From NCBI RefSeq assembly GCF_021028975.2, contig NC_059430.1:102734001-102798000 (forward strand): 64,000 nucleotides of DNA. Reading direction: 5' to 3'. Shown in pieces: positions 27,527 to 64,000 of this stretch; position 1 is the stretch's first letter, and the number at the start of each line of letters is the position of its first letter. This DNA is from Sphaerodactylus townsendi. Its lineage: Eukaryota. The translations under genes and the position numbers were made by a program. The notes beneath the pieces are model-generated. The model made no database searches, was not told the DNA's origin, and was given only the letters and a program-made list of their open reading frames with translations.

Positions 27527-27673
27527 GAAATCGTACTATTTACACTATGCCCAATGGCGTAAGACAGAAACATATGCACAGAGAAGGAAAGTGCAAAGCA
27601 CACTTAGCGCTTTCCTTTTCTGTGTGTGTGTTTCTGTTTTAAGCCATTGGGCATAGTGTAAATGATAGGTTTC
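27527..27673. repeat. Long imperfect hairpin (probable old MITE)
   Basis: ATTTACACTATGCCCAATGGC...GCCATTGGGCATAGTGTAAAT, with pairing continuing almost to the centre. Confidence 0.8.
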
Positions 27674-36834: not shown

Positions 36835-37026
36835 CTTTATGCAGAAGGCTTTCTTTACCAACCAGCGTCGGGTGCGCCTCCGGCGGTACTGTTCTGGAAG
36901 GGTGTATTCAATGTCCAGCTGCTTGCATGTATTCTCAAAAACATCATACTTTGTGTTGCGCAGGGCCTTCAGCAACAGGTTCCGCCGGTCAATGCTCATC
37001 AGCATTATGCGTTTGTTTGTTTTGTC
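36835..37026 (-). CDS. MRPS15: MRPS15 exon 7 (192 nt)
   Basis: DKTNKRIMLMSIDRRNLLLKALRNTKYDVFENTCKQLDIEYTLPEQYRRRRTRRWLVKKAFCIK (ribosomal S15 domain). Confidence 0.96.
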
Positions 37027-37441
37027 CTGGGGATGGGACAGAGGTTTATTCACTACAGTCAGGGCATGTGCAAGGCTATCTGCGGATAGTTACTCAACTG
37101 TTTTATTAAGCTGCTGCTCAAATTTATTCACATATTGCAGAGCTTCACTGAATGTAATGTGCTGAAAAACAGATGCAGTTTTTCAAGCAAAAGATTGATG
37201 TGAATATAAACTGCTGTGGCTTCTGGGTGGAAGGAAAGGGCTGTCTTCATCATAGTGGGGGATTATGAAACGCTGCATCTCAGTGTGGTTTCCCAAACAA
37301 GTGAAGTTCAACATCATCTTTATTATATTTACAAAGATCTGAAGCTGCTGTATCCCAAATCAGCATAGTCCACCACATTCAGCACTTTTCACTATGACTG
37401 GCAAGTGCTCTGCAGGGTCCCAGTCACTGGAATATCTATCC

Positions 37442-37560
37442 CAGGGGTCTGCAACCTGTGGCTCTCCAGATGTTCATAGACTACAATTGGCCATGGTAGC
37501 AGGGGCTGATGGGAACTGTAGTCTATGAACATCTGGAGAGCCACAGATTGCAGACCCCTG
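37442..37560. mobile_element. Palindromic hAT MITE (URR1-like)
   Basis: CAGGGGTCTGCAACCT...AGATTGCAGACCCCTG with TSD ATCTATCC/ATTTATCC. Second copy at ~37690-37847, third at ~23625-23731. Confidence 0.85.
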
Positions 37561-39194: not shown

Positions 39195-39505
39195 TATGAT
39201 TGGTCATGGTGGGTTTTCCGGGCTGTGTGGCCACAGTCTGGTGGATCTTGTTCCCAACGTTTCGCCTGCATCTGTGGCTGGCATCAGGAGCTAGGCCTTA
39301 GGATAGAGGTGCCCGTTCCACAGCAGGTCCCTTCTCACTGGAGGTTCAGAACAGACTTCCCAGTGATACAGCTCTGAAGATGACAGCCACAGGATGCAGG
39401 CAAACCCACAGGGAATGAAGATCCACTTCCTGACTCAATGTCACACACAGTCCTTGAAACCTGACATGACACCCAGTTGAATCCAGCCATGAAAGTCTCT
39501 GTATG
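39195..39505. mobile_element. Degraded palindromic Penelope-like family A element with ~85-nt spacer
   Basis: AACGTTTCGCCTGCATCTGTGGCTGGCATC arm and CTCTGAAGATGACAGCCACAGGATGCAGGC arm. Confidence 0.65.
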
Positions 39506-46789: not shown

Positions 46790-47028
46790 CAGGGGTGGGC
46801 AATTATTTTTTCCATGGGGCCGCATAAGAAACAGAAAATATTGTGGAGGGCTAGGCCAAAAGGCAGGGGGGCGAGGCGCTTTTGAAAGCCCCGCAGAAGC
46901 CAGCAGCCAAGGCAACTGGCTTCTGCGGGGCTTTCAAAGATGCCTCACTCCCCAGCAAGGCAGGGGGGCCAGTCAGGGTCATCTGGCAGGCCGGATGTGG
47001 CCCGCGGGCTGTATAATGCCCAGGTCTG
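46790..47028. mobile_element. hAT MITE with internal perfect hairpin, inserted into an L2-like 3' end
   Basis: Perfect TSD CAGTAAAG. Internal 23-bp stem TTTGAAAGCCCCGCAGAAGCCAG / CTGGCTTCTGCGGGGCTTTCAAA. Confidence 0.85.
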
Positions 47029-53833: not shown

Positions 53834-54562
53834 TACCTACCCACCTACCCACTTGACTTCCCCCGTATTTTATATTAGAACTGAATACTGCAGTGTTAAC
53901 ATTTTAAAAATTGAAATATACACACTCCCTCTCCTAAAGACTGGATTTATTTGCAGAGCACTGCTCTTCTTCTGCAAATCAGGCCTTTCTGTTTCAGACC
54001 TAAAAGTACTGGATGCCAGGAAAAACAAAAACAAACAAACAAACACTGGCAAGTTCTGGAAAGTCACGGATACTAAGGTCCAAGCTACATGCTGTGATTT
54101 TCAACATGGTGTATCAGAATTATCCAACCTAATTTTGAATGAGTCAGTCAGTCATGCATTAACTGAGAGTTCTCCACTGGGAACCCATTTCACAAGCACG
54201 TGGACCCCTGATTCGGATTTGGATTGTGGTGTGTGGGGAGGAAAGGGCTCCAGCCTTCCCTCCTGTGCTGATTTCCTGACCCAAAAATATCCCTGAGGGT
54301 GCTGTTTGTCTTGTTGAGGAGGGGGGTTGCAGAAGTAGCCCCTCAGTGCACATGCAGCACGTTTTCCTTGTGAACCATGGTTCTGATATGAATTGAGGCC
54401 CCACATACTTGGACAACGGGACTGGCTTATGACTGATTGAAAGCTAGCTAAGGAAGCCAGGCGCACTGCTCCAAAACACACAGCTTGAGCCTAGTTAATG
54501 GATCTCTCTCTTTTCGTGGCTTTCACCCCAAGCACCAGTTCCTCTTCCAGGGCTCTCCTTAC

Positions 54563-54703
54563 CTGTTCCTTTGGTGTAGAGCATCAGGCTGGTTCCATTG
54601 GTGCTCCCAGCCACAGTGGAGGCCATGATGTGCACTTTGTACATAGTCATAGGCTTGAGATCTGTGATGGTGAATGAGTTCACAGAGGAGTTCACAACAG
54701 CAC
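54563..54703 (-). CDS. CSF3R: CSF3R membrane-proximal FNIII exon (141 nt)
   Basis: AVVNSSVNSFTITDLKPMTMYKVHIMASTVAGSTNGTSLMLYTKGT. Confidence 0.94.
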
Positions 54704-54830
54704 CTAGGAAGGAAGGCAGCCACTCTTAGCCAAGCCAGCATGGAAGGAAACAACAGGCCACAGGGGGAGCAAAGAAGGAGCTGGAGCCAGACTGCCAGTG
54801 GGAGGGGCTTGGCATCCAGCATCCAGTAGA

Positions 54831-55045
54831 TGCATTGTTGAAGGCTTTCACAGCTGGCATCAATGGGGTGCTGTGTGGTTTCCGGGCTGTATGGCCGTGT
54901 TCTAGCAGCATTCTCTCCTGACGTTTCACCTGCATCTGTGGCTCATCAGATCCTCTGAAGATGCCAGCCACAGATGCTGGCGAAACGTCAGGAGAGAATG
55001 CTGCTAGAACACGGCCATACAGCCCGGAAACCACACAGCACCCCA
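54831..55045. mobile_element. Young palindromic Penelope-like family A insertion
   Basis: 10-bp TSD ATCCAGTAGA and near-perfect inverted arms. Confidence 0.85.
54951..54993 (+). ncRNA. Minimal type I hammerhead ribozyme motif
   Basis: TCCT-CTGAAGA-T-GCCAGC-cacagat-GCTGGC-GAAA-C-GTC-AGGA: stem I TCCT/AGGA, 6-bp stem II, palindromic ACGT helix III, GUC cleavage triplet. Expression and activity are unknown. Confidence 0.7.
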
Positions 55046-55152
55046 ATCCAGTAGAGGGTTTATTTCTCTCCTAAAGGTGGAGACAAACAAGGATTCAGGC
55101 GGCACTTGAACACACAACTTATGGACAGATGTCGGGAAAGAAAACATGGAAC

Positions 55153-58100
55153 CTTCTGGAACCAGCAGAGAGGAGTAGCAGCAGAAGAGACTTGGCCAGG
55201 AAGAGCAGAGTGACCTGCTGGTGTTCATTTTGGAGGGCTTTTCTCAAAGCCACAGCTTTTAAAACAGTGTTATTTTAACAGGGGTTATCTCTTTTTCTCC
55301 TTGTAAGGCTGCTGAATCTGGAAGGTGGGGCTTAACAGGGGTTAACAGAGTTCATCTCTTGTTCCTCTTTGTCCTAAGAGGTGGGGTTTTTGTCCCTGAG
55401 GAGGTGGGGCTTTAATCTCCAGTCTCTAGGAACCAGCATGAGAGGAGCAGCAGCAGAAGAGACTTGGCACAGGAGAAGGAGCAGAGTGACCTAAGCTGGC
55501 GGTAACAAGCGCTGCTAATTTTAATTTCTAACTTTTTTTTTTCTAAATTAATAAGGACATATTTGACAGATAGTACGTGCAGATAGCTCCAGGGGCAGTG
55601 ACTAAAAGCTTAATATCTAAATATCTAAACAAATCCAGATACATGAAGGCAGAAAGCCAGCAGGGGATGGGGGAGCTTTCCAGTGTTTTGCTCCTTGAGT
55701 GTCCCAAGGATGTATGATTATCTGCCACTAGGACAGAAGTCGTGGGTGTGCCCTCGCTGCAATGAGCTCTCCCTGGCACTCAAGGAACATTAATGCGTTC
55801 TCTTGAAGCCAAGAGTGGCAAAACCTGGAGAAGCTGAAAGAGGGAGGAGAGGGTGACAGACGAGGCTCAGGGGACCCTAGCAGCCGGGTCCCCACTCCCA
55901 AGGTGACATCTCTTCAGATGTCATGGAGAATGAAGACCTTGGGGATGGGAGGGGTGCCAGTCTGAGGTGGGGAAGATGCTCCCTTTAAGATGGGATCCCC
56001 TTCCTTAACTGGTTGATCAGCTATCCTCTAGCGACTGGAGGATAACTCCCCTTTGGGAGAAGTGGGGCTCCTTGTGGTGGGTGATTCGATCATTAGAAAT
56101 GTAGAGAGTTGGGTTTGTGAGAGGCGTGATGACCGCATGGTGACTTGCCTGCCTGGTCGCGAAGGTTCACCCGGATGTCAACGCTTCGTCTAGATAGGCT
56201 TTTAGACAGTGCTGGGGTGGAGTCAGCAGTTGTAGGTCCACATTGGCACCAACGACATTGGGAAATGTACCCGGGAGGTTCTGTACGCTAAGAATTTAGG
56301 GCTGCTAGGGAAACAGGTTGAAGTCCAGGACCTCCAAGCGGTGGCATTCTCAGAAATGCTACCCGTTCCATGGCGCAAGAGGTGAGCTAGGCAATGCTGG
56401 AGATACAGGGTCTCAATGGAAGTGGATGAGAAGGTGGGTGTAAGGCAGAGGGTTTCTAGATTTGTCAGGAACTGGGGACCTTTTGGGACAAGGTAGGCCC
56501 TGTACAAATGGGATGGAGCTTCATCTTAACCAAAGAGGAACCAGGCTGCTGGCGCTTCCAACATGTAATTAAAAAAAGGTGGCAGAACTTAGCTTTTAAA
56601 CTGGGATCACTGGGGGAAAGCCGACAGGAGCTGAGGTGACTTTGGTCTTCGGAATACAGTATCTATGGGGATGCAGACAGAGAGAGGAGGTTTTTCCTAA
56701 ATCAACCACATACAAGTTTAGGGAACATAGCAATGTGCAGTATGTGACAAGGGATAAGATGTCTACAAAAAGACTTGAGGGTAAAAGCACATAGAAATCC
56801 CAGGTTAAGGAACCCAGGAGGACAGGGTATACAGGTGTCTCTATGCTAATAAGTAGAAGCATTCCTCGAACGTAAAATGGGGAGCTAGAGTACAGAGTTT
56901 TGAAGGAGGACTTTGATATAGTGGGCATTACATGAGACATGGTGGAATGAGGGAGAACCAGTGGGATGCTGTTCATACCAGGCTACAGGCTCTATAGGAA
57001 GGATGGGACAGGAAGCATTGGGAGTTGGAGTTGCCCTTTACATCCAAAGAGAAACGACATAGTATCACATAAAATAGACAATGCAAGGGGAGCTGGTTCC
57101 CCTACAGAATCACTATGGATATATCAATACCAGGTGTGAAGGACAGTTTAATATTAGGAATATATTATAAGTCCCCAGACCAAAGTGCACAAGAGGATTC
57201 TGAGATGGAAAAAAAAAAAAAAAAAAATTAGAGAGGCCAACAAAGAAACAAAATGCTATGTAGTGGTAATGGAGGTGATTTTAACTATCCCCATATAAAC
57301 TGGAAAAATGCATGTTCAAGGTCATAGTATGGAGAGAGCATTCCTGGATATGCTAAATGACTGTGGCTTAGAAGCGGATGGATTTGTGGAACCAACCAGG
57401 GGAGAGGTGATCCTAGATCTAATTCTATATGGGACCCAGGACCTGGTGCAGGAGATCAGTGTTGTTGAGCCAATGGGGAACAAACCACAATGCTGTCAGA
57501 TTCAGTATCTCAGCATGCAGTCTCAAGTGGCAACTACTAAGAAATGTAGTTACATTAAGCCTTCCAGAAAGGGAAATTTCTCAAAGATGATGGGGGGATA
57601 GTGCGCATGAGAGCTGAAAAGGAAAATCAAAGGAGAGTCAAAACTGTCCAGGATGCTTGGAGGTTATTTAAAAACACAGTAATAAAAGCTCAGCTGGAAT
57701 GTGTTCCCTGGGTTAGAAAAGGCAGCACCCAGTCCAAAAGAAAGCCACCATATGGATTTAACAAGAGAGGTTGAGGAAATTATCAGAGAAAAGAAAATGT
57801 CTTTTAGAAAATGGAAGTCCAGTTTGGCTGATAGAAGAATATGAGAGGGGCACAAATGGTGTAAAGAGAAGCAAGTTAGCTGTAAGGGAGGCAAAAAAAG
57901 GATTATGAGGGCAGCATGGCTATGAACATCAAGACCAGCAACAAACAGTTCTTCAAGTACATCAATGGGAGGAAGCCAGCAAGAGAAGCGGTAGGCCCAT
58001 TAGATGACAAAGGAGGAGACAAAGGGTGTGCTAAAAGATGTAGAGTGCAGAGAAGCTGAATGAATTCTTTGCATCTGTCTTCGCAAAGAGGGAGGTGAGG

Positions 58101-59926
58101 AACGATTCCTGCACCTGAACCAAGCTTCTTAGGAGGCGAATCAGAGGAACTAGCGAAGATAGTGGTAGACAAAGGGAAAGAAGTTCTGGCAGCCATTGAT
58201 AAACTAAATGTTACCAAATCCCCTGGCCCAGATTGCATTCACCCAAGAGTTCTTAAAGAGCTCAAGCATGAAATTGCTGATCTTCTCAACTTTAATATGC
58301 AACTTATCCCTGAAATCAGGCTCCATCCCTGAGAGACTGGAAGATGGCCAATGTCACACCAATCTTTAAGAAAGGATCTAGGGGGGACCCGGGAAATTAG
58401 AGGCCAGTCAGTTTGACACATCTGTTCCCTGAGTAAATTAGTAGAATCTATCATTAAAAGATAACATTATATAAGACATGTAGAAAAGCAAGACCTGCTG
58501 AGAAAGAGTCAGCATGGCTTTTACAGAGAGCAAATCCTGTCTTACAAGAGCTTACTAGAGTTCTTTGAGGGTGTAAAACAGGCATGTGGACGAGGGTGAA
58601 CCCGGTGGACATTGTCTACTTGGATTTCCAAAAGGCTTTTGACAAAGTTCCTCACCAGAGACTGTTGAGAAAACTCAGCAATGAAGGGAATAAGAGGGGA
58701 AGTCCTCCCTATGGATTAAAAACTGGTTGAGAAACAGGAAACAAAGGAGTGGAGTGTAAATGGGAAGTTCTGTGTGGAGATGCTCCGGGAGTGGTGTCCC
58801 CCAAGGATCCCGTTTGGGACCAGTGCTCTTTAACCTATTCATAAATGACCACAAAGGAGGGGTGCAGGTAGCAGTGGTGGCCAGAGTTTGCAGATGATAC
58901 CAAATTATGTAGGGTGGGTGAGAGACTTCACAAAGGGATTGCTTGAGCTCCATGAGGATATGATAAATTAGGTGAGTGGGCTCAGAGAGGCCATGAAGTA
59001 CAGTTCAATGTAGCAAAATGTAAAGTGATGCACATAGGGGCAAAAAATCCAAACTTCACATACACGCTACAGGGGTCAGTGCTATCAGTCACAGACCAGG
59101 AAAGGGATTTAGGAGTCTTAGTGGATAGTTCCATGGGAATGTCAACTCAATGCATGGCAGCTGTGAAAAAGGCAAACTCTATGCACAGGGATCATTAGAA
59201 AGAGGAATTGATAATAAAACTGCAAAGATTGTCATGCCCTTATATAAAGCAGTGGAGTGCGACCCCACTTACAGGTACTGTGTCCAGTTCTGGTCACTTG
59301 CATCTCAAAAAGGATATTGAGGGAGATAGAAAAAGGGCAGAGAGAAAGGGCAACAAGGATGATTAGGGGACTAGAGCACCTTCCATTATGAGGAGAGAAC
59401 TGCAGCGTTTGGGACTCTTTAGTTTGGAGAGGATGCGGCTGAGGGGGGATATGATTGAAGTCTACAAAATTATGCATGGGGTAGAAAATGTTGACAGAGA
59501 GACATTTTTCTCTCTTTCTCACAATACTAGAACCAGGGGACATTCATTGAAAATGCTGGGGGGAAGAAGTGGGACTAATAAAAGGAAACACTTCTTCATA
59601 GCGTGTGATTGAATTGTTTGGAATATGCACTACACTTGGGGGGGGGTGGTGATGGCCACTAACCTGGATAGCTTTAAAAGGGGCTTGGACAGATTTATGG
59701 AGGAGAAGTTGATTTATGGCTACCAATCTTGATCCTCTTTGATCTGAGATTGCAAATGCCTTAACAGACCAAGGTGATAAAAGGGTGTGGCCATGAAGGC
59801 CATTGCGTTCACATCCTACATGTGAGCTCCCAAAGGCACCTGGTGGGCCACTGCGAGTAGCAGAGAGCTGGACTAGATGGACTTTGGTCTGATCCAGCTG
59901 GCTTGTTCTTATGTTCTTATGTTCTT
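55153..59926 (+). mobile_element. Near full-length CR1 LINE (frameshifted), antisense within a CSF3R intron
   Basis: Repeated 5' UTR. ORF1 from ~55643 has a CxxC...CPRC finger and esterase LVVGDSIIRNV. ORF2 has endonuclease (CLYAN, GDFNYP) and RT (LDFQKAFDKVPH, GVPQGS, FADD ~58888) motifs. (TTCTTATG)3 tail and candidate TSD ATGGAAC. Confidence 0.93.
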
Positions 59927-61590
59927 ATGGAACTTTGGTTTTATATACGAAAACAGCAGCAAGAATATTACATGCACAGAAATGGAAAACTCCAACTATT
60001 CCTACAATTGAAGAATAGTGGGTGAAGATAACTAAGTTAACTGCTATTAAAAGAAAATAACTTTAAGAGTTTGGATTTATACCCTGTTTTTCTCAGCTGT
60101 AAGGCGTGTCAAAGTGGCTTACAAGCTCCTTGCTTTCCTCTCCCCACACCTTGTGAGGTAGATGGGGCTGAGAGAGTTCCGAGAGAACTGAGACTAGCCA
60201 AAAGATCACCAGTAGGTGTCATGTGTAGGAACAGGGAAACAAATTCAGTTCACCAGATAAGAATCAGCCACTCATGTGGAGGAGTGGGAAGATCAAACCT
60301 GGTTCTCCAGATTAGAGTTCACTGCTCTAAACCACTACAACATGTTGACTTTGAAGGTTAAGGATTGTTAAATTAAAGACCCAACTGAGAAAAGTAAGAC
60401 TGTTTATTAGTAATTATGCTAAAGATTTAATTTCATTGTGAAGCTTAATGGCCAAGTGGAGGATTTTAGGGTAAATATTACCTGCAGAAGAAACTGGAAG
60501 TTTCTGTGAACACTTTACAATTTGGTGATTTTCTGTCTTTGTGTATGCTTTTGACTTTAATTTTGAAGTAGAAATAATTTTTTTGGGGAAAAGAACATAT
60601 AACACACAAGAAGCTGCCTTATACTGAGTGAGGCCATCATCAGCCATCAAGGTCAGCTGTGTCTACACAGACCAGGGGTGGTTCTCCAGGGTCTCAGGCC
60701 GAGGTCTTTTGCATCACCTACTGCCAGCTCCTTTAAACTAGAGATGCCAGGGATTGAACCGGGCACATTCAGCATGCAAAGCAAGGGCTCTTATAACTGA
60801 GTGACAGCCCTTCCCTTGTCCGGGCCACGGAGAGAAGCTATGGCAAGATCAGTACACGGGAAGGTCCAAGGGAAAGGAGAACCAGGAACTGGGAAGAAGA
60901 GAGAAAGGGGAAGCCTTAATGGACTAACTAACTGACTCCAGAACTGGAGCTCAGGTACTTGTTGACCTGTCCTGAGGCATTTATGCTATGGGGCCCTGAA
61001 GGGTTCCATCTTGCTCCCCAGACTGTTTAACTTCTATATGAAATTGCTGGAGGGATTTGGAGCGAGGTGGCATGAATATGGGGATGCAACCAGCTGGAGG
61101 ACAGATTAAACTTCCTGTGTGCTGAAGTTCTGACCCAAATACATCCCTCAAAACCTGGAATTCGAGTTCCCATCATGGAACCTCAGGTGCATCTTTGGAG
61201 CAGCTGGATATCTTCCACAGGGACTCTGTTATGTGCAGATTGGCCCTTGGATTCCAGACCTTAGAGTCCAGACCTTGCTATGGATGAGGCTGAGTAATTT
61301 GGTAGAAAACAGAAGTAGCAACATGTTTGAGAGCTATGCAAAAACCAGTAGGGTGTAGTAGTTAGAACAGTGACCTTTGTTCTGGGAGACTTGGGTTTAA
61401 ATCTCTACTCAGTTATGAATCCTGCTGGGTGACCTTGACTAGTCAACTTAACCTACTCCACAGTAGGATCAAACTACTTCTCCTGCTAGGAGGATCAAAT
61501 GGAGAAGCATGCTGTTGTTATCTCCTGGGGGGAAGGGCAGGATGAACTGATACGGATCGACAGAGGGACTGAACTGTAGATGGGACTCAC

Positions 61591-61737
61591 TGCTCATATC
61601 ATCATTGGGGCTGATCCAGAAGATTGTGTAGCTGGTGATGAAGCCGTTGCGCAGTTCCAAAGGGATGGGATCCCAGAGAAGCTGAGCGGTTGTCTTGCTG
61701 ATAGCCCCTGGGTGAAGTTGGGGACTCTCAGAAGGAG
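61591..61737 (-). CDS. CSF3R: CSF3R FNIII exon (147 nt)
   Basis: APSESPQLHPGAISKTTAQLLWDPIPLELRNGFITSYTIFWISPNDDMS. Confidence 0.94.
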
Positions 61738-62149
61738 CTGTAGGAAGAGAGGATTGTTAATAGCAGACCACAGGACTGCGGGAAGTGCAGCTTCAGTGAG
61801 GCTTGGCAAGGCAAAGACTTACCTGCAGAACCTGTTCTTAGGTCCACAGCTTAGGAAATGTGGTGATGTCTGAGCATGTGCAGAGTGTTTGCTGGGTAAC
61901 CACAAGTGGATGTGGCATCCAGGAAAGGTTATCCCCATATAAAAATTAGGCAGCGGGACTCAAAAGCAACATGAAGGAGAGTCTTTTCCCCCCTAAATAT
62001 CTCTATTTCCAACTTCAGTGTCAGTAGGGTCATGGAGTGAATCTAATGGATCCATTTTGTTGACAGAGGTACTTCCTCTGGTTCAAGGAGCCTTCAGAAG
62101 ATGCAGTAGGCTCAAGCAGATCTCTTTGCCCCAAGGGAGAGGGGTTACT

Positions 62150-62377
62150 GTTAGTGGATTTTTTTTTGCCATCAAACCACATCTAACTCATAGCAATCCT
62201 GGTGGGGGTTTTTAAGACAAGAGACATTCCGAGGTGGGTAGCCTTTGCCTGCCTGCCTCCGTGTCACAACCCTGGCATTCCAAGGAGGCCTCCCATCCAA
62301 ATCCTTGCCAACCTCGACCCTGCTTAGCTTCTGAGATCTGACAAGGTCAGGCTAGCCTGGGCTATCCAGGTCAGGGT
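62150..62377 (-). mobile_element. 5S rRNA-derived SINE
   Basis: Minus-strand head GATCTCAGAAGCTAAGCAGGGTCG...TTGGATGGGAG followed by a non-5S body. Copies at ~11490-11650 (+), ~33500-33690, ~38100-38270, ~40380-40550 and ~52940-53140. Confidence 0.7.
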
Positions 62378-62542
62378 GTCAGTGGAATAAATCTATTGGA
62401 TCTAATCGTGGACTTGTAAACAAATAGAAACAATGAACTCTCTCCAAGGCAAATGTCACCCTCCCAACAAAAAGCTTGTTTGAATGATAGTTGTATGCAT
62501 CTATATCTCATCCATCTCCTGCGTGGCATGGCATCAGCATAC

Positions 62543-62644
62543 CTTTCTGCCTGGTGTACGCTTCTGTACTCTGGGGCATTCCCACTCCATCCTCGTAGAG
62601 GGGGTAGATGGAAATAAGGTACCGCTGGTAAGGCTCAATGTTTT
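62543..62644 (-). CDS. CSF3R: CSF3R FNIII exon (102 nt); upstream exons lie beyond the window
   Basis: NIEPYQRYLISIYPLYEDGVGMPQSTEAYTRQK. Confidence 0.93.
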
Positions 62645-64000
62645 CTGGAAGAGACAAGGGAAAAGTTGTCTGGAGGATGTAGACCTGGAGTCAGAAGGGA
62701 AGGAAAAGCCCACAAGGAAGAGGTGGTCTTAAGAAGGCAGAGACACTACAGCAGAAAGGGGCCAGAAGTCTTTAAGTTAACCCATTTGGCCTCTAAGTCC
62801 AAGTCATATGTGAATTAACATGCTCTTTAGACGTGGTCTGGTTTATTGGACCGTGTTCAGCTTTGGGAAGTGGATAATCAGTCTTGTGAAAATAGCAGTT
62901 TCTGGTATTAACATTGGAATCCACAAAACTGCAGCTTAGGCAAGGTACCTCTCTTGCGTTTGGGTACAACAACAGCAGGATTCTGTTTTGTCAAATACTT
63001 ATAAAAATCTGGTGGTTTATTAAAGGCAAGATCCCCCCCTCCCCCCCACATTGGTCTGTGTGAACATTTGAAAATGGACCAACTTCCCCTACATGTTCAC
63101 ATCCATCAAATTTAACAACTCACTTCATTCTTTGATTAGAGTCTGTCTAAGTGCATGTCTGCCATGTGGGGAAAAAGAAGTACAGTCAGAAGCGTCACAT
63201 TTTCAGTGACCAAAATAGAAACACTTTAAAAAGAAACCAAGAGCCAAAGCCGACACATTCAGGGGCAAGAGCCACAGGTGCTCTCCGTGTGTCTGGGCCA
63301 TTCAGGTAGATGGAATGTGGGTGCCAGTCTCCTTCTCACAACACGAAGTGGACTCAGGCCTGAGGTGTTGAACTCTCCTCTCTTTGCTTTCTGCTGCTCT
63401 TTCCCAGTAGGCCTTTTCCTTCCCACTTGGCTCTTATAGCACAACGAAGAAAACCACTTGAAGACATGGAGTGGAACTGGAATAGGAGGGCAAGGGGGAA
63501 GGAGAGCCAGCATGGTGTAGTGGTTAACAGCAGATGGATTCTAATCTGGAGAACCGGGTTTGATTCCCCACTCCTCCACCTGAGTGGCAGAGGCTTATCT
63601 GGTGAACCCAGATGTGTTTCCACACTCCTACATTCCTGCTAAGGTGGCGTTGGAGGCTGGAGGTTCATAGATTCATTCAAAACCCCTCTCAACCCCACCT
63701 ACTCCACAAAGGTTGTTGTAGGGAGAGGAAGAGTAAGAAACTTATACGTCACAAAGTCTACTTACAGGAGAAGGTAGAGTGATATAAATCCAAAACTCTT
63801 CTTCTTTTCCCCCCAGCACCCCCATCCTGATGTACAAATCAATTCCCTGCATTAAACATGGCTGTCGTCATACTTCTGGACCTTAGAGAAGCTATTATGC
63901 TTATGGAAGTGGCAACTATTGTTTAGGGGGTAGCTTTGGCCATAAAATCAGCACTGTCTTTTCCCCAGATGCAGAGTTGCTCTTGGCCTCTGAAACAAGA

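What the first reader, a model, noticed from the sequence alone, without database searches (positions are those of the whole stretch)
54831..55045. Intact minimal hammerhead ribozyme inside a TSD-flanked ~215-bp palindromic retroelement in a CSF3R intron
Seen: at 54951-54993 the + strand has every hammerhead core element. These are CUGAAGA, one extra U, a 6-bp stem II, GAAA, GUC (predicted cut after 54989) and a 4-bp stem I; helix III is only the palindrome ACGU. The opposite arm, sense to CSF3R pre-mRNA, reads CUGAUGA-GCC...GGU-GAAACGUC, a second core with almost no stem I. Established: Penelope-like elements carry such minimal hammerheads, which cleave mainly as dimers. Inference: at least five related copies in 64 kb point to a very abundant family of short ribozyme-bearing hairpin insertions, either truncation products or a non-autonomous family. 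These place ~90-bp dsRNA stems in host introns, here ~130 nt from an acceptor.
Basis: partly seen in the sequence, partly recalled or inferred. Interest (0 to 1): 0.7.

Follow-up and report, generated by a model that had tools for sequence, protein, structure and literature searches.

The report
Head-to-head Penelope stub, hammerhead buried
This hairpin in a CSF3R intron is two short pieces of the front end of a known kind of jumping gene (a Penelope-like element) joined head to head, one of thousands in this genome; its self-cutting RNA motif is predicted to be locked inside the hairpin, but sister copies that stop exactly at the cut site suggest the ribozyme likely does cut in living cells.

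Summary
The element is real: 54831-55045, 10-bp target duplication, 80-nt arms 98% complementary, a complete minimal hammerhead on the + strand. It is the ORF start of a Poseidon-type Penelope-like retrotransposon: an intact 819-aa RT + GIY-YIG ORF in this genome begins with the same sequence and is 85% identical to an Anolis protein. The arms cover ORF +6..+118 and -17..+85, the known inverted-copy-plus-tail layout. In 90 sister copies, outer ends are fixed, inner ends peak at -12 but vary, and junctions are mostly unique (67 kinds in 75), so this is not a discrete non-autonomous family. The second 'core' is a junction by-product, and the intact one is predicted buried (38 kcal/mol). Two side results: arms starting exactly at the cut site are about 2.4 times as common as at two control positions, with the partner arm also ending there in 5/20 vs 0/40 loci, and family RNA reads show A>G/T>C excess. 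Lizard Penelope editing is already published. The scan found this class before in at least 8 other genomes.

The parts
54821..54830 (.). Left target-site duplication (10 bp, exact)
54831..54863 (-). Unpaired 33-nt PLE 'tail', ORF +86..+118
   Evidence: alignment to the L071 ORF head; tail defined in PMC11167929
54831..54943 (-). Tailed (sense) arm, ORF +6..+118; truncated inside stem II, lacks its own CUGAAGA
54943..54949 (-). Junction-made CUGAUGA (pseudo second core): antisense of -17..-12 plus ORF base +6
   Evidence: sequence against natural upstream sequence in L062; junction variety
54944..55045 (+). Inverted arm, ORF -17..+85; ATG of the PLE ORF at 54961
   Evidence: 96% identity to the L071 head
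54951..54993 (+). Minimal type I hammerhead motif; predicted cut after 54989 (ORF +29); predicted buried in the hairpin
55046..55055 (.). Right target-site duplication (10 bp, exact)
54560..54703 (-). CSF3R FN3 exon downstream of the element (3' boundary approximate)
   Evidence: gene identity

Best explanation
The element is a short head-to-head insertion of the ORF-start region of a Poseidon-type Penelope-like retrotransposon, likely made when both cut strands of the target each primed a cDNA on the element's RNA. SHOWN: the arms are ORF +6..+118 and -17..+85 of an intact RT + GIY-YIG element of this genome, between a 10-bp duplication. INFERRED from the Anolis protein's published behaviour: the endonuclease makes staggered nicks, one strand primes at about +118 and the other at about +85, both cDNAs run towards the RNA's 5' end, and the two cDNA ends are joined with trimming, microhomology or filler. 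INFERRED: the peak of inner ends at -12 marks the RNA 5' end, set by a TATA box 28-29 nt upstream; priming at the 5'-most site of the transcript gives run-off stubs of about 100-130 nt, which is why short copies dominate. PREDICTED: in any read-through RNA the two arms pair and the hammerhead cannot fold, so this copy is a dsRNA and editing substrate, not a working ribozyme. INFERRED: a small minority of templates (order of 1-2% of arms) had already been cut by the hammerhead, leaving arms that start at +30.
For: Intact 819-aa ORF at L071:3299-5758 starts with the element's sequence; RVT_1 E=1.1e-12; 690/816 identical to Anolis carolinensis P0001. PMC11167929 (parts 1-2 of 4 read): ORF starts at stem II, cut 26 nt after the start codon, RT starts at +111-118 and a second site one tail-length upstream, both strands are cut and extended, uncut RNA is the main template. 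First 90 of 6,341 tail-word matches: inverted arm in 75 of 90, its outer end at +75..+91 in 60 of 75 (3 at +118/119, 12 unassigned); inner ends at -17..-7 in 46 of 90 and 46 of 75, mode -12; 8 of 15 copies without an inverted arm end at -13..-11; two long ORF copies, L071 and L073, start at -10 behind an inverted head. The inverted arm reaches 30 nt or more further upstream than the tailed arm in 12 of 75, the reverse in 3 of 75, so neither arm is simply a copy of the other. Stem I and II pair probabilities 0.000 in whole-element RNA; forcing the fold costs 38 kcal/mol. Cut site: 151 arms start at +30 vs 69 at +28 and 59 at +33; partner arm ends within 1 nt of the same place in 5 of 20 vs 0 of 40 loci, Fisher p=0.003; 7 both-arm +30 palindromes.
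Against: No RNA 5' ends were seen: no place where many molecules begin, at -12 or +30, so the start site is inferred only. The -13/-12 AG also looks like a splice acceptor behind a pyrimidine tract, and the GATC palindrome could pull joined ends to -12. Arm asymmetry could arise after insertion by deletion at the palindrome centre. PMC11167929 reports no difference in RT start between strands in vitro, whereas genomic copies nearly always have one long and one short outer end. The +30 excess rests on two control positions; 3 of the first 20 loci are microhomology joins and 1 an internal deletion, both-arm loci are counted twice in the 151, and an RT pause at the ribozyme core would look similar. 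PMC11167929 found no RNA-seq reads starting at the cut site in Anolis. The sample is the first 90 hits on one chromosome and favours young copies; a TSD of 8 bp or more was found automatically in only 50 of 90.
Confidence: 0.78

Rival explanations
1. One cDNA folds back on itself (or is self-primed on an antisense template, as proposed for rotifer Penelopes), and later deletions at the palindrome centre make the arms unequal.
For: PMC3846280 proposes self-priming from junction palindromes (passages). 8 of 75 copies are -12/-12 joins on the GATC palindrome and 32 of 75 have inner ends within 4 nt of each other.
Against: In 12 of 75 copies the tail-less arm holds 30-820 nt of upstream sequence that the tailed arm lacks, and a cDNA primed at +85 cannot supply the tail. 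Many junctions carry filler. The Anolis protein extends both strands in vitro.
Confidence: 0.13
2. A discrete non-autonomous hairpin family (SINE- or MITE-like, or a retrozyme) that is copied as a 215-bp unit.
For: Many near-identical 210-223-bp palindromes with their own TSDs were retrieved with this copy as query; both arms end at -17..-7 in 27 of 90 position-ordered copies.
Against: 67 different junction strings among 75 copies, commonest 6; arm lengths run from about 40 nt to over 900 nt in one continuum up to full ORFs; this copy's junction occurs in none of the other 29 best matches; the TATA box is absent from short copies.
Confidence: 0.05
3. This copy is a working or host-adopted ribozyme that cuts CSF3R pre-mRNA or an antisense RNA, alone or as a dimer.
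For: All core letters are intact on the + strand, and stem II forms with probability about 1 if only the right arm is transcribed.
Against: The intact motif is antisense to CSF3R; the sense-strand core is a junction product with G-U at the base of stem II; the hairpin outcompetes the fold by 38 kcal/mol, also in nascent + strand RNA; stem I is under 0.11 probable even in isolation. The Anolis motif needed the element's protein.
Confidence: 0.04

Closest known systems
Poseidon of Anolis carolinensis (PAc; PMC11167929, main text parts 1-2 of 4 read; 3 text supplements searched, no hits)
   Same: ORF starts at hammerhead stem II; cut 26 nt after the start codon (+29 here); ends at +111-118 and one tail-length upstream; closest database protein is an A. 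carolinensis ORF at 85% identity.
   Different: Other genome. That P0001 is the Repbase Poseidon_Ac protein was not checked. The parts read do not analyse inverted short copies, their inner endpoints, or ends at the cut site.
Inverted pLTR with one-sided 30-40-bp tail of endonuclease-bearing PLEs (PMC3846280, PMC8557442; passages)
   Same: Head-to-head inverted truncated copy, palindromic junction, optional tail, TSD, TATA plus initiator-like motif in the pLTR.
   Different: Here both halves are reduced to about 100 nt and the form is present in thousands of copies.
Minimal type I hammerheads of metazoan PLEs (PMC4209133, parts 1-2 of 4 read)
   Same: Short helix I, extra base after A9, palindromic helix III remnant; most occur as single or opposite-strand motifs from truncated PLEs.
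   Different: Here the motif sits in a near-perfect hairpin with its own antisense copy.
Non-LTR retrozymes (bioRxiv 10.64898/2026.07.22.740005, part 1 of 5 and passages)
   Same: Derived from PLE pLTRs, carry type I hammerheads.
   Different: Retrozymes are head-to-tail tandem units with a ribozyme in each; this is head-to-head and not a repeated unit.
Hyper-edited lizard Penelope repeats (PMC5625713, passages)
   Same: Penelope is reported as massively A-to-I edited in lizard (over 40,000 sites).
   Different: The passages read explain frog Harbinger editing by self-folding but give no such explanation for lizard Penelope; the head-to-head stubs would supply one.

Membership tests
Penelope/Poseidon clade EN+ PLE | Single ORF with RT and C-terminal GIY-YIG endonuclease in a parent element | tested here: met
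   819-aa ORF L071; RVT_1 E=1.1e-12; YVDD and GVY-x-CSC-x-YIG read in the sequence. Pfam gave no GIY-YIG hit; the motif is by inspection.
Penelope/Poseidon clade EN+ PLE | DKG motif; CCHH with two Cys between GIY and YIG; no CX2-5CxxC linker finger (PMC8557442) | tested here: met
   DKG and CxC present, no such Cys finger between RT and EN (sequence; definitions).
Penelope/Poseidon clade EN+ PLE | Placement in the clade by RT phylogeny | not tested
   No tree built; only 85% identity to an Anolis ORF.
Penelope/Poseidon clade EN+ PLE | Inverted truncated copy, 30-40-bp one-sided tail, variable TSD | tested here: met
   33-nt tail and 10-bp TSD here; 75 of 90 sister copies with inverted arm; TSD mode 12 bp.
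Minimal type I hammerhead of PLEs | Core CUGANGA / GAAA / NUH, extra base before stem II, G10.1-C11.1, short helix I, palindromic helix III | tested here: met
   + strand 54951-54993. Not met by the minus-strand motif (G-U pair, no stem I). No Rfam hammerhead match.
Minimal type I hammerhead of PLEs | Self-cleavage (dimer or protein-assisted) | not testable with these tools
   Indirect only: excess of arms starting at +30; fold predicted inaccessible in this copy.
Discrete non-autonomous family (SINE/MITE-like) | Fixed unit with a shared internal junction inherited by copies | tested here: not met
   67 junction strings in 75 copies; continuum of arm lengths.
Non-LTR retrozyme | Head-to-tail tandem units, each with a hammerhead | tested here: not met
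   Arms are head-to-head here and in 75 of 90 sampled copies.

The most novel reading that the evidence does not exclude
The family's insertion ends record the life of the element's RNA: two fixed priming sites used one per target strand, run-off to a start site 2 nt above the hammerhead, and a minor class whose two arms both stop at the hammerhead cut site. That last class would be genomic evidence that a minimal Penelope hammerhead cleaves in the germ line before reverse transcription, which the in vitro study could not see in RNA-seq. The self-folding stubs would also explain why lizard Penelope is so heavily edited.
Probability: 0.55. Interest if true: 0.55.

Novelty: new member of a known kind. 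Interest (0 to 1): 0.3.

Why it matters
The locus itself is ordinary: one stub among thousands, of a described layout. The family is useful because it is a close relative of the only Penelope-like element working in vitro and has thousands of young copies, so open questions become countable: how the inverted head forms, where the RNA starts, and whether the minimal hammerhead cuts in vivo. Both arms stopping at the cut site in some copies is a direct handle on the last question. Thousands of 80-100-bp intronic hairpins are also a large dsRNA load for ADAR.

Tried and rejected
Rfam scan: no hammerhead family, only hairpin-driven miRNA matches below gathering score. Pfam did not detect the GIY-YIG domain. 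No RNA holder of the locus was listed. Laying RNA on 54000-62800 gave exon depth of 0-0.6 and no splice joint among the rows shown, so splicing, editing and cleavage of this copy are untested; reads on the element come from other copies. No molecule-start pile-up on the single-arm reference; random fragmentation makes this uninformative. Presence or absence of the insertion in other individuals was not settled. The BLAST-picked set L001-L030 looks like a uniform family but is biased by the query; it was replaced by position-ordered samples. A 2028-aa frame at L072 is a simple repeat next to an ORF fragment. A spliced upstream exon as the cause of the -12 peak: no shared upstream sequence was seen by eye in the 15 solo copies, but it is not excluded. 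No covariation test and no RT tree were run. Five paper searches listed no paper that, by title or abstract, reports insertion ends at the PLE hammerhead cut site; subscription papers are not covered, and the dimer-cleavage paper of Lunse et al. 2017 is recalled, not seen. Figure supplements of PMC11167929 (S1, S2, File S1) could not be read and may show such ends.

Full report
Observation. The window sequence holds the element at 54831-55045 between exact 10-bp repeats (54821-54830, 55046-55055). Arms 54864-54943 and 54966-55045 are 80 nt and 98% complementary; 54831-54863 is unpaired. Five family loci lie in the window. Rfam matched no hammerhead family. The host gene is CSF3R on the minus strand: an exon 7.4 kb beyond the window matches G-CSF receptor at E=1.3e-16, a second matches gp130 and G-CSF receptor about equally, the next exon is FN3-like, and an MRPS15 exon lies in the window (its neighbourhood to CSF3R in mammals is recalled).

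Abundance. A 40-nt hammerhead word has 10,249 exact matches in the 1.81-Gb genome, the reversed control 0. A 28-nt tail word has 6,341. These are lower bounds for young copies.

Parent element. One of the first 30 hammerhead-anchored loci, L032, ran upstream into RT and GIY-YIG coding sequence. Searching with that piece led to L071, an intact 819-aa ORF whose first 118 nt are the element (91-96% identity). It has RVT_1 (E=1.1e-12), DKG, YVDD and a GIY-YIG motif with CxC inside, and no Neptune-type linker finger (definitions). Its best database match is an Anolis carolinensis protein, 690 of 816 identical; the best non-Anolis named hits are insects at 56-57%. In the Anolis element PAc, the ORF starts at stem II, the cut is 26 nt after the start codon, and RT starts at +111-118 and one tail-length upstream on both target strands (PMC11167929). 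Here the ATG is at 54961, the cut falls after +29, and the arms end at +118 and +85.

Anatomy of this copy. The tailed arm (minus strand) is ORF +6..+118. The inverted arm (+ strand) is -17..+85 and carries the intact motif. The minus-strand CUGAUGA is six bases of antisense upstream sequence plus base +6, so it is a junction product; its stem II starts with G-U. Folding gives the hammerhead stems probability 0.000 in whole-element RNA and in nascent + strand RNA, and forcing them costs 38 kcal/mol. These are predictions.

Not a discrete family. I took the first 90 of 6,341 tail-word matches in chromosome order (L076-L165; two rows are one locus) and aligned them to one natural copy. An inverted arm was found in 75 of 90; its outer end was +75..+91 in 60, +118/119 in 3, unassigned in 12. 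Inner ends fell at -17..-7 in 46 of 90 tailed and 46 of 75 inverted arms, mode -12, and otherwise ranged from +80 to -827. There were 67 junction strings among 75. A TSD of 8 bp or more was found in 50 of 90, mode 12. The inverted arm reached 30 nt or more further upstream in 12 of 75, the tailed arm in 3 of 75, and 32 of 75 were within 4 nt. This fits two cDNAs made per insertion better than fold-back, although later central deletions could add asymmetry. The layout itself is published (PMC3846280, PMC8557442).

The -12 peak. Eight of 15 copies without an inverted arm end at -13..-11, and long ORF copies L071 and L073 start at -10. A TATATA lies 28-29 nt above -13/-12. I infer the transcription start. 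The same AG could be a splice acceptor; in Drosophila virilis Penelope an intron ends at helix I. RNA reads showed no start pile-up.

Ends at the cut site. Arms that begin at a position with three non-matching bases before it number 151 at +30, 69 at +28 and 59 at +33 (ratio 2.4; only two controls, both-arm loci counted twice). In the first 20 loci of each list the partner arm ended within 1 nt of the same position in 5, 0 and 0 (Fisher p=0.003), mostly with filler between. Against: 3 of the 20 at +30 are microhomology joins and 1 is an internal deletion. Seven loci in the first 100 of the 151 rows have both arms at +30 (six blunt, one with 2 nt of filler); none in the 69 or 59 control rows. 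In the 90-copy sample 4 of 165 arm ends were at +29/+30. The simplest reading is a minority of templates already cut by the ribozyme; an RT pause at the core is not excluded.

Editing. On a single-arm reference (L062:815-1075) three RNA runs showed A>G at 8, 15 and 21 places and T>C at 16, 20 and 22, against 2 and 3 in DNA contigs; C>T and G>A counts were similar (9-12 vs 9; 15-18 vs 12). At six sites that I picked from the 40 of 100 rows shown, RNA had 3-33% and DNA 0.09-2%; three C>T/G>A control sites had 11-29% vs 18-23%. The RNA runs are coded as another organism (D) than the DNA run (B), and contigs drop rare variants, so this is family-level and likely, not shown. Massive editing of lizard Penelope is published (PMC5625713). 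This copy could not be tested.

Earlier notes. After stating my reading I found 17 notes in at least 8 genomes with the same class; none by sequence. They are not independent support.

Verdict. Real, explained, a new member of a known kind; interest 0.3. The cut-site class is the part worth following.

Noticed in passing
window 39199-39420: A second family shares the hammerhead core but has other sequence on both sides; its flanks appear as the main loose ends in RNA and DNA at L062:920 and 961.
   Followed up: partly
L071:3299-5758: After Anolis (85%), the best named homologues of the ORF are beetle proteins at 56-57%; no other vertebrate is named until a goby at 39%. Possible horizontal transfer; no tree built.
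   Followed up: no
L062, just above the hammerhead (ORF -35..-12): Pyrimidine tract plus CAG directly before helix I looks like a 3' splice site, as reported for D. virilis Penelope; longer copies in sense orientation could add cryptic acceptors to host introns.
   Followed up: partly
L034, L037, L072: Long G-rich simple-repeat arrays (unit about 16 nt, up to 5 kb) directly abut Penelope pieces in three loci; filler synthesis or assembly artefact not decided.
   Followed up: no
L158 and L163: Two loci 1.26 Mb apart share an identical 34-nt junction filler: a segmental duplication or a rare copy of a whole stub.
   Followed up: no
L053, L051, L180: Some short insertions hold ORF sequence beyond +118 between two heads, i.e. 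template jumps or tandem templates.
   Followed up: no
window 27529-27672, 37442-37560, 46863-46956: Other short inverted repeats of unrelated families.
   Followed up: no
window 36889-37089: MRPS15 exon on the minus strand, E=1e-15 to mitoribosomal S15.
   Followed up: yes
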